Shown here: positions 10,630 to 11,135 of the stretch, in pieces | How positions within the stretch are numbered: position 1 is the stretch's first letter | Layout: each line of letters begins with the position of its first letter | Virus record (IMG/VR): IMGVR_UViG_3300005578_000001 | Coordinates: 17,813-81,812 of that record | Direction: 5' to 3' (one strand) | DNA length: 64,000 nucleotides | Source of the DNA: a virus | Notes under the pieces: model-generated | What the model saw: only the letters and a program-made list of their open reading frames with translations | Database searches by the model: none | Told to the model about the DNA's origin: nothing | Translations under genes and position numbers: made by a program

Positions 10630-11135
10630 TACCTGAAGCGAATAGGTCAAAGCGCCCTTATGCTTACCATGCTTCCAGAATGCGCTGGATTTCTGTCGCG
10701 TTTTGATTCTCATGGCAGTTATACGCCATTGGCGTCGTTGCTTAACCTGTCCGGGCCTTCCACGCTCCGCAACGCATAGCCGTGGATCGCTTAGCAATAT
10801 AGAGCAAACTAATTTCAGGCCATTGGCCCCCATGACGTACCGAGCCCAGTAGGGCCGCGCAATGCACCGCTATAGCAATGCTCCGCGTTGGGAAAATCTA
10901 TAATTGCAATAGGCCATAGGCCCCTAGCCATGCACGGCCTTACTACGGTGTGCCGCTCGCAGCCGAGCAACTGCCGGGCGCAGGCTGGCCCTGCTCTACG
11001 CAGAACTCTATATGATTTCAAAATGGACCATTGGTCCCCCCGCGCTGCGTTACCAACCTAGCCGCACAAAGGGCTACAGTGCCGGGCCGCGCGTCGCCAC
11101 CCGAGGATAGCTCTGCTATACGGAGCCGAAAACTT
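10630..11135 (-). ncRNA. array of 4-5 pentamer-periodic units (NN-NGY)n, each ending in a hairpin; candidate guide RNAs
   Basis: Hairpins at 11025-11037, 10912-10922, 10818-10828, 10723-10735 (spacing 113/94/94 nt); 5-nt periodicity, e.g. ga-cgc gc-ggc cc-ggc ac-tgt. Confidence 0.75.

What the first reader, a model, noticed from the sequence alone, without database searches (positions are those of the whole stretch)
10630..11135. Array architecture: (NN-NGY)n tracts each closed by a CCAATGG-type hairpin
Minus-strand parse. Unit 1: tc-ggc tc-cgt at-agc ag-agc ... ga-cgc gc-ggc cc-ggc ac-tgt ag-ccc tt-tgt gc-ggc ta-ggt ... aa-cgc ag-cgc, then GGACC-AAT-GGTCC. Unit 2: ... tc-ggc tg-cga gc-ggc ac-acc gt-agt aa-ggc cg-tgc at-ggc, then GGCC-TAT-GGCC. 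Unit 3: aa-cgc gg-agc at-tgc ... gg-tgc at-tgc gc-ggc cc-tac tg-ggc tc-ggt, then GGCC-AAT-GGCC. Unit 4: at-tgc ta-agc ga-tcc ac-ggc ta-tgc gt-tgc gg-agc ... ca-ggt ta-agc, then ACGCC-AAT-GGCGT. Stem sequences differ while pairing is kept, and each hairpin is followed by an AT-rich linker. A degenerate fifth unit ends near 10631-10647. Standard CRISPR or tandem-repeat finders would miss this.
Basis: seen in the sequence. Interest (0 to 1): 0.9.

Follow-up and report, generated by a model that had tools for sequence, protein, structure and literature searches.

The report
Phage VIPR guide-RNA array, degenerate repeats
The stretch is an array of four guide-RNA genes of a VIPR system, a CRISPR-like, phage-borne RNA-guided DNA silencer first described in 2026, so it is a real but already known kind of element, here in a variant whose five-letter repeat has lost one fixed letter.

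Summary
Four hairpins lie at 11025-11037, 10911-10923, 10817-10831 and 10723-10735, on the minus strand. A period-5 G-pyrimidine signal is real (z about +5 against shuffles).

The stretch is the vrRNA array of a VIPR locus (bioRxiv 10.64898/2026.04.26.720920). The upstream gene (11136-11795) matches the solved SUSP1 Vipr protein and models as a Cas7-like fold. The downstream gene (10052-10546) is the conserved accessory gene. More than 40 related loci carry clean (GGY-NN)n tracts closed by the same hairpin.

This scan has noted VIPR loci many times before on other DNA (470 notes).

New points:
- The window's repeats are NGY-NN. The Vipr residue that reads the first G in SUSP1 (D177) is Asn here.
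- A second Asn lineage has CGY-NN repeats. All 42 Asp-type loci keep GGY.
- Under the published one-base-skip rule, guides of three related phages match genes inside a 6.3-kb IS1-like transposon that sits in this phage, inserted four codons before the accessory gene's stop.

No target was found for the window's own four guides. The search covered about 0.9 Mb of local sequence only.

The parts
11136..11795 (-). vipr: 219-aa minimal RAMP (Cas7-like) protein, phrog_4652. Its G-loop reads G-L-G-N-W-R-P, with Asn199 where other Vipr proteins have Asp.
   Evidence: phmmer against PDB 36pp_D 'SUSP1 Vipr protein' gives E 5e-9. A family profile gives 6e-57. The AlphaFold model (pLDDT 74) has Csm3, type VII Cas7 and Csf2 as its top Foldseek hits. 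PHROG hit, alignment.
11025..11127 (-). vrRNA1: about 18 NGY-NN pentamers (several irregular), then GGGG and the hairpin GGACC-AAT-GGTCC (11025-11037).
   Evidence: It is the orthologue of L011 vrRNA1 but carries indels.
10911..11005 (-). vrRNA2: about 16 pentamers, then the hairpin GGGCC-TAT-GGCCT (10911-10923).
   Evidence: It is the orthologue of L011 vrRNA2.
10817..10887 (-). vrRNA3: 10-11 pentamers, then GGGGGCC-AAT-GGCCT.
10723..10806 (-). vrRNA4: 14 pentamers, then the hairpin ACGCC-AAT-GGCGT (10723-10735).
   Evidence: L004 vrRNA4 and L011 vrRNA2 have the same tail stem.
10631..10722 (-). Possible decayed fifth unit: a tail-like stretch at 10641-10658 without a hairpin.
   Evidence: (family D4, 78% to tail 2). 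Weak.
10052..10546 (-). vap-like accessory gene: 164 aa, winged-helix-like N-terminal part plus two long helices. Its last 5 codons and its stop come from the transposon's inverted repeat.
   Evidence: It lies next to vipr in about 25 distinct contigs. The model has pLDDT 86. Foldseek hits are weak but all are winged-helix DNA binders. End structure.
3806..10070 (.). IS1-like composite transposon: 22-nt inverted repeats at 3806-3827 and 10049-10070, and a 9-bp target duplication CAGTTTCGG at 3797-3805 and 10071-10079. It is inserted 4 codons before the vap stop. It is not part of VIPR, but it carries the sites matched by relatives' guides.
   Evidence: The transposase gene 5832-6671 has a Pfam DDE_Tnp_IS1 hit.
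9568..9626 (+). Site matched by L011 vrRNA1 under the 1-nt skip rule (31 of 40 informative bases), inside the XRE-type gene 9400-9645.
   Evidence: The shuffled-guide maximum is 26. Skip bases fall on codon position 3.
6093..6136 (+). Site matched by L004 vrRNA1 (24 of 30), inside the transposase gene. It encodes the peptide TFGDVWTYCAIDAET.
   Evidence: The orthologous site in a 63%-identical transposase (L081) matches 23 of 30.
6543..6577 (+). Site matched by an L005 guide (19 of 24), inside the transposase gene. It encodes the peptide VSLHFAAYNFVR.
   Evidence: The orthologous L081 site matches 18 of 24. Each match is borderline on its own.

Best explanation
Window 10723-11127 (minus strand) is an array of four vrRNA genes of a phage VIPR system. 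Each RNA of roughly 70-105 nt would consist of 10-18 five-base units followed by a 3' hairpin tail.

By homology with the SUSP1 system, one Vipr protomer (gene 11136-11795) binds each unit. It sequesters the fixed G-pyrimidine and presents the two variable bases (positions 4 and 5). These pair with double-stranded DNA read as NN-x-NN-x, that is, with every third target base skipped. The bound gene is thereby silenced. The 164-aa winged-helix-like protein (10052-10546) is the accessory Vap.

Shown here: the homology, the architecture, the covarying tail, and that the skip rule works for guides of close relatives.

Inferred: that the RNAs are expressed, how they are processed, that Vipr loads them, and that they silence targets.

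This lineage differs from the canonical form in that unit position 1 is no longer G (NGY-NN). This goes with Asp to Asn at the residue that hydrogen-bonds G1 in the SUSP1 structure.
For: Protein. Vipr homology to the solved SUSP1 Vipr. Cas7/Csm3-like fold. H17, K32 (=K33), R160 (=R138), W200 and R201 are conserved (read against 10.64898/2026.04.26.720927).

Relatives. Felixounavirus relatives of SUSP1 carry GGY-NN tracts beside the homologous gene. All 9 IMG/VR relatives in the first scan, and more than 40 loci in all, have (GGY-NN)n plus a hairpin on the vipr strand directly beside vipr.

Array. Period-5 signal. Tail covariation. The vap gene is conserved beside vipr.

Targeting. Only the 1-nt skip rule gives significant hits. 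They come from an Asn-type guide (L011 vrRNA1, 31/40) and an Asp-type guide (L004 vrRNA1, 24/30 and 23/30 at orthologous sites). In all five matched sites, which are three sites plus two orthologues, the skip base falls on codon position 3.

Asn type. Asn and loss of G1 go together. In 42 Asp-type loci the median G1 frequency is 0.85. It is 0.43 in the window, 0.34 in L011, and 0.09 in L062, where position 1 is C in 82% of units. The 13 closest database relatives (81-100% identity) all keep Asn and full length.
Against: No RNA data exist for this phage, so expression and processing are not shown.

The window's guides contain more irregular 4- and 6-base units than those of L004 or L011.

Alanine at the SUSP1 equivalent of Asn199 abolishes silencing, so an impaired system cannot be excluded.

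No target was found for any of the window's four guides, although only about 0.9 Mb of local sequence was searched.

The VIPR type (I-VII) could not be assigned. The vap shows no sequence similarity to the Felixounavirus vap.
Confidence: 0.9

Rival explanations
1. It is a VIPR array, but a decaying, non-functional one. The G1-reading Asp is lost, the repeats have drifted and contain frame-breaking units, and the locus has been hit by a transposon.
For: G1 is only 39-43% and irregular units are frequent. vrRNA1 has indels relative to its L011 orthologue and no longer matches that guide's site (18/36 against 31/40). SUSP1 D177A is inactive. A transposon is inserted in the 3' end of vap. No targets were found.
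Against: The Asn type is a stable lineage: 13 distinct full-length proteins at 81-100% identity. The L011 Asn-type guide has 20 regular units and a significant skip-rule target. The G and pyrimidine positions are still 78-97% conserved. All four tails keep perfect pairing through different stems. The transposon changes only the last four residues of Vap.
Confidence: 0.17
2. The palindromes are double-stranded DNA operators or iterons for the neighbouring winged-helix proteins. On this reading the period-5/10 G-C pattern is a DNA-shape signal, not RNA.
For: The palindromes are spaced 94, 94 and 114 bp, close to whole helical turns. Two winged-helix-like genes flank the region. GC is self-complementary, so both strands show the periodicity.
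Against: The stem sequences differ while pairing is kept. That is the signature of a folded single strand, not of a protein-recognised DNA motif. Relatives have strand-specific GGY (T as well as C at position 3), always on the vipr strand. The 105-aa wHTH gene is absent from relatives. The family is shown experimentally to be RNA.
Confidence: 0.03
3. It is coding sequence, or a set of intrinsic terminators between genes.
For: Mechanical ORFs of 41-96 aa overlap the tract.
Against: There are no family hits. Period 5 is incompatible with codons. Orthologous tracts differ by 1-nt indels. The scan finds no minus-strand terminator in the tract.
Confidence: 0.01

Closest known systems
VIPR systems (Vipr + vap + vrRNA): type II of Escherichia phage SUSP1 and a Pseudomonas fulva prophage (bioRxiv 10.64898/2026.04.26.720920, .720927, 10.64898/2026.10.15.759431)
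   Same: The protein is a homologous minimal RAMP with the G-loop GxGxWRP and with H17, R138, W178, R179 and K33 conserved. The RNA genes are about 100 nt, built of tandem pentamers with two variable bases and capped by a structured 3' tail. They form an array beside vipr in a phage, next to an adjacent DNA-binding-type accessory gene. The one-base-skip target rule holds, with skip bases on codon position 3.
   Different: The repeat is NGY-NN rather than GGY-NN, and the G1-contacting Asp is Asn. The tail is a simple 5-bp hairpin with a 3-nt loop, and its stem differs between units of one array; in SUSP1 the tail is invariant and forms a pseudoknot. The vap is unrelated in sequence to the Felixounavirus vap. 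The type could not be assigned.
Non-canonical VIPR repeats already in print: NNNGG, YNNNG and NNNNG (10.64898/2026.04.26.720920, methods), and WGT/NN and TGH/NN (10.64898/2026.10.21.760802)
   Same: The fixed trinucleotide is degenerate at one position. The window's units read YNNNG in that notation.
   Different: The main texts that I could read do not link the degenerate position to a substitution in the G1 pocket. Their supplementary tables were not available here.
Class 1 CRISPR-Cas Cas7 backbones (Csm3, Csf2, type VII Cas7)
   Same: The fold is the same, and one protomer binds each periodic segment of the guide.
   Different: There is no repeat-spacer array and there are no other cas genes. 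The period is 5 rather than 6. The guide is non-contiguous.
TRAP-type ring proteins binding (G/U)AG triplets at a 5-nt period (recalled from general knowledge)
   Same: A short fixed motif recurs at a 5-nt period about 11 times.
   Different: No TRAP-like gene is present. The neighbouring protein is a RAMP. This was only an early lead and was dropped.

Membership tests
VIPR system | The Vipr protein is homologous to characterised Vipr. | tested here: met
   PDB 36pp_D 'SUSP1 Vipr protein': E 5e-9 for the window protein alone and 6e-57 for the family profile. tblastn hits in 126 phage records, mostly Felixounavirus-like.
VIPR system | RAMP/Cas7-like fold with a glycine-rich loop. | tested here: met
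   The model's top Foldseek hits are Csm3, type VII Cas7 and Csf2, with E 2e-4 to 1e-2 and probability up to 0.99. The G-loop G-L-G-N-W-R-P is present. Model confidence is only moderate (pLDDT 74).
VIPR system | The residues that contact G1, G2 and Y3 and the target backbone in SUSP1 (H17, D177, R138, W178, R179, K33) are present. | tested here: inconclusive
   Five of the six are conserved. D177 is Asn199 in the window. The effect on function is unknown.
VIPR system | vrRNA made of tandem YNNGG (GGY/NN) pentamers: at least 4 units by the authors' caller, 9-16 typical. | tested here: met
   The feature is met in the published variant form YNNNG. There are 10-18 units per RNA, with G at position 2 in 78% and a pyrimidine at position 3 in 88%, but G at position 1 in only 39%. 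The relative L004 (79% identical Vipr) has canonical GGY at 93-97%.
VIPR system | A structured 3' tail caps each repeat tract. | tested here: met
   All four units carry a hairpin. There are 11 distinct stems across relatives, and all of them pair.
VIPR system | A minimal locus with an adjacent vap gene and no CRISPR array or cas genes. | tested here: met
   The 164-aa gene is conserved beside vipr in about 25 contigs. The window has no Rfam CRISPR repeat family. The neighbouring genes are phage replication genes.
VIPR system | The vrRNAs are expressed as discrete small RNAs bound by Vipr. | not testable with these tools
   Only DNA runs hold the sequence, from a rhizosphere metagenome.
VIPR system | Targets are recognised by the NN + 1-nt skip rule. 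| tested here: inconclusive
   The rule is met for guides of relatives, including the Asn-type L011. No target was found for the window's own guides in about 0.9 Mb of local sequence.
CRISPR-Cas (class 1) | A repeat-spacer array with repeats of 24-40 nt, plus cas1/cas2 or multi-subunit effector genes. | tested here: not met
   No direct repeat longer than 20 nt is present. TRF and Rfam give no hit. There is a single RAMP gene.

The most novel reading that the evidence does not exclude
The Asp to Asn change in the G1 pocket, with His17 to Asn in a second lineage, may be a natural re-specification of the Vipr scaffold code. GGY would become NGY in the window's clade and CGY in a Phycisphaeraceae lineage. 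This would give Vipr/vrRNA pairs that are partly orthogonal to canonical ones, and so harder for rival elements' solo GGY guides to hijack.

In addition, this clade's VIPR systems may police an IS1-like transposon by aiming guides at its conserved transposase motifs and at a cargo regulator. In the window's phage, which lacks a working guide against it, that transposon has landed inside the VIPR locus itself.
Probability: 0.25. Interest if true: 0.6.

Novelty: new member of a known kind. Interest (0 to 1): 0.4.

Why it matters
The class itself is in print (three preprints in 2026), and this scan has met it hundreds of times. The array is therefore not a discovery in itself. Two things are worth keeping.

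1. A natural substitution at the structurally defined G1-reading residue tracks the repeat consensus in two independent lineages. This points to which residue sets the scaffold code, and to how orthogonal VIPR tools might be built.

2. Guides of three related phages converge on conserved motifs of an IS1-like transposase and on a regulator carried by the same transposon. That would add transposons to the target classes named in the papers' main texts: satellites, prophages and rival VIPR loci. It also gives a clear natural example of the codon-periodic skip rule tolerating six wobble differences between transposase copies that are 63% identical.

Tried and rejected
Finders and databases with no result:
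- tRNA/tmRNA search: none.
- Rfam at gathering and at permissive thresholds, on the window and on nine relatives: nothing meaningful.
- Tandem Repeats Finder: nothing.
- blastn of the locus against GenBank phages: no match.

Early ideas dropped once the VIPR papers and homology were found: a TRAP-like ring protein site, two-tier G-quadruplexes, and pac/ori repeats.

Alternative decoding rules:
- Rules with 0, 2 or 3 skipped bases gave no significant hit.
- I tested the idea that the freed position 1 pairs with the skipped target base. It is rejected for L011 vrRNA1, where position 1 matches the skip base in only 2 of 19 units.
- A 30/44 hit of window vrRNA2 in contig G001 at 15780 under that rule exceeds 40 shuffles by only one match. 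It is not significant after about 200 tests, and I treat it as chance.

Other negative or unavailable results:
- The wHTH gene 11808-12125 is not conserved beside vipr in relatives.
- No RNA holder is listed for the stretch.
For that reason the contexts of the Asn-type proteins P0002-P0014 and P0066 could not be read. P0066's contig was not recovered from IMG/VR or the JGI scan either.
I stopped that step and redid the count from the stored files.

Left out on purpose: I did not type guide-derived gapped patterns into the DNA search or the genome search, because they are joined sequence.

Full report
WHAT IS THERE

On the minus strand, the 590-nt gap between ORF 11136-11795 and ORF 10052-10546 holds four short hairpins. 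They are GGACC-AAT-GGTCC, GGGCC-TAT-GGCCT, GGGCC-AAT-GGCCT and ACGCC-AAT-GGCGT, spaced 94, 94 and 114 nt apart.

G-pyrimidine dinucleotides autocorrelate at lag 5 (z +5.1) and at lag 10 (z +4.7) against dinucleotide-preserving shuffles. Parsed into units, position 2 is G in 78% and position 3 is C or T in 88%, while positions 1, 4 and 5 vary. ARAGORN, Rfam and Tandem Repeats Finder see nothing.

The whole record is a single 81.8-kb virus contig with a 120-nt terminal overlap. It comes from a rhizosphere metagenome. Phage replication genes lie on the minus strand and structural genes on the plus strand.

WHAT IT IS

The upstream 219-aa protein has no Pfam family but belongs to phrog_4652. It has distant homologues in Felixounavirus-like coliphages.

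Nine IMG/VR relatives (53-87% identity) were found with it. All of them carry a much cleaner version of the element directly after the gene: long runs of GGY-NN pentamers closed by AGGG and a hairpin of the CCAATGG type. A homologue of the 164-aa gene follows.

A literature search for pentanucleotide repeats in phages found the 2026 preprint that defines VIPR systems. These consist of a minimal RAMP protein (Vipr), an accessory gene (vap), and vrRNAs of about 100 nt. Each vrRNA is built of 9-16 GGY/NN units with a structured 3' tail. The NN bases pair with double-stranded DNA while every third target base is skipped.

The companion structure paper reports one Vipr protomer per unit. It assigns G1 to H17 and D177, G2 to R138 and W178, and Y3 to a pocket that includes R179.

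The window protein matches the deposited SUSP1 Vipr chain (36pp_D) at E 5e-9 alone, and at 6e-57 as a family profile. Its model has Csm3, type VII Cas7 and Csf2 as best structural matches. A Felixounavirus locus with the homologous gene shows GGY-NN tracts upstream and downstream, as described for SUSP1.

The 164-aa gene lies beside vipr in about 25 distinct contigs. It models with confidence (pLDDT 86) as a winged-helix-like domain followed by two long helices. Its structural matches are weak, but all are winged-helix DNA binders. This fits the DNA-binding vaps reported for some VIPR types. It has no sequence similarity to the Felixounavirus vap, so I cannot assign a type.

The tails covary. 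Among 62 tails of the NNNCC-WWY-GGNNN form there are 11 different stems, and every outer position pairs. In total, 120 of 135 called guides end in a hairpin.

HOW THE WINDOW DIFFERS

In the window, and in its closest IMG/VR relative L011 (87% identical Vipr), unit position 1 is G in only 39% and 37% of units. In L004 (79% identical) it is G in 93%.

In the protein alignment, the otherwise invariant G-loop motif G-D-W-R-P reads G-N-W-R-P in exactly these two. The pairwise alignment to the solved chain places Asn199 on D177, the residue that hydrogen-bonds G1.

Over 45 loci the pattern is as follows.
- The 42 Asp-type loci have a median G1 frequency of 0.85. The one low value, L058, comes from false units called in GC-rich coding sequence; its arrays read as clean GGY.
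- The window has 0.43 and L011 has 0.34.
- A distant Asn-type locus in a Phycisphaeraceae genome bin (L062) also has Asn in place of H17. It has C at position 1 in 82% of units, that is, CGY-NN repeats.

In the large protein database, the 13 closest relatives of the window protein (81-100% identity) all carry Asn and are full length. The next relatives carry Asp. One further Asn-type protein at 61% identity (P0066) again has Asn at position 17.

Degenerate repeat forms (YNNNG and others) are already reported. I found no mention of the Asp/Asn link in the main texts.

DOES THE CODE WORK IN THIS CLADE?

I called guides in the window's genome, in five complete relative contigs and in all fetched loci. 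I then scanned about 0.83 Mb, later extended by about 0.08 Mb, under rules with 0 to 3 skipped bases. Shuffled guides served as the null. Only the one-skip rule gave significant hits.

1. L011 vrRNA1 is an Asn-type guide of 20 regular units. It matches window 9568-9626 at 31 of 40 informative bases (shuffle maximum 26). The site lies inside the XRE-type gene 9400-9645.
2. L004 vrRNA1 matches window 6093-6136 at 24 of 30 (shuffle maximum 21). The site lies inside gene 5832-6671, an IS1-like transposase.
3. An L005 guide matches window 6543-6577 at 19 of 24, in the same gene.

Guides 2 and 3 also match the orthologous sites of a transposase copy that is only 63% identical (L081), at 23 of 30 and 18 of 24. 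For L004 vrRNA1, the two target copies differ at six skipped bases but at only one informative base. All five matched sites put the skipped base on codon position 3, as the papers describe. The targeted peptides..VWTYCAIDA.. and ..LHFAAYNFVR, are conserved motifs of the enzyme.

The phages that carry these guides have no homologue of either target gene in the sequence held.

In L011 vrRNA1, position 1 matches the skipped base in only 2 of 19 units. The freed position therefore carries no target information, and the rule stays NN plus one skip in the Asn type.

THE TRANSPOSON

All three matched sites lie inside an element bounded by 22-nt inverted repeats (3806-3827 and 10049-10070) and a 9-bp target duplication CAGTTTCGG.

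It is inserted four codons before the stop of vap. Vap now ends ..PKLGSVLI, read from the inverted repeat. The displaced original end..PKLVVNE-stop, is still legible at 3780-3805 and is identical to the L011 end.

The window's vrRNA1 is the orthologue of the XRE-matching L011 guide. It carries indels and substitutions and matches the site at only 18 of 36. This fits avoidance of self-targeting. It equally fits simple decay.

THE WINDOW'S OWN GUIDES

No hit above the shuffled-guide level was found for any of the four guides, in the phage's own genome or in the relatives. A database-scale gapped search was not run.

VERDICT

The element is a new member of a published class, which this scan has already noted 470 times on other DNA.

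What this report adds is the Asp/Asn covariation with repeat position 1, the transposon-directed guides of relatives, and the transposon insertion into vap. I have no evidence that the window's array is expressed or active.

Noticed in passing
window 3797-10079: A 6,265-bp IS1-like composite transposon with 22-nt inverted repeats and a 9-bp target duplication CAGTTTCGG. It is inserted four codons before the stop of the VIPR accessory gene. The displaced original C-terminus (..PKLVVNE-stop) is still readable at 3780-3805 on the minus strand.
   Followed up: yes
window 6093-6136, 6543-6577, 9568-9626: [quoted passage not shown] Skipped bases fall on codon position 3.
   Followed up: yes
L062 9640-10950 (Phycisphaeraceae genome bin, RECQ01000021.1): A VIPR locus whose repeats are CGY-NN (C at position 1 in 82% of 80 units). 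Its Vipr has Asn at both G1-contacting positions (H17 and D177 equivalents). Its tail is a longer hairpin of a different sequence.
   Followed up: partly
G000 contig ends (outside and at the end of the window, window 63881-64000): The first 120 bases of the 81,812-nt contig equal the last 120. The record is therefore probably a complete circular or terminally redundant phage genome of about 81.7 kb.
   Followed up: partly
L011 3795-3885 compared with window 10723-11005: L011 vrRNA2 looks like the 5' part of window vrRNA2 joined to the last unit and tail of window vrRNA4. This suggests a deletion or recombination between units of the array.
   Followed up: no
L006 2403-2593: A vrRNA tract of 38 units, far above the 9-16 reported. 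It contains a three-unit block (GGCAG GGTCT GGTTT, with variants) repeated about six times, which looks like an internal tandem duplication.
   Followed up: no
L036 1519-1578 to L061 10639-10673: A guide of one relative matches 21 of 24 informative bases at the 3' end of the vipr gene of a Thermoguttaceae genome bin (E about 0.01 in the local scan). This would be a guide aimed at a rival's vipr, as described in the October 2026 preprint.
   Followed up: no
window 12090-12119 (+): Six pentamers, five of them GGY-NN, lie on the strand opposite to the operon. They overlap the promoter-like site TTGACT-17-CATACT and the start of the wHTH gene. No tail hairpin follows. By a rough estimate the chance of such a run in the window is about 0.03.
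   Followed up: partly
window 11808-12125 (-): The 105-aa winged-helix gene directly upstream of vipr has no homologue beside vipr in any fetched relative. It is probably not part of the conserved VIPR module.
   Followed up: partly
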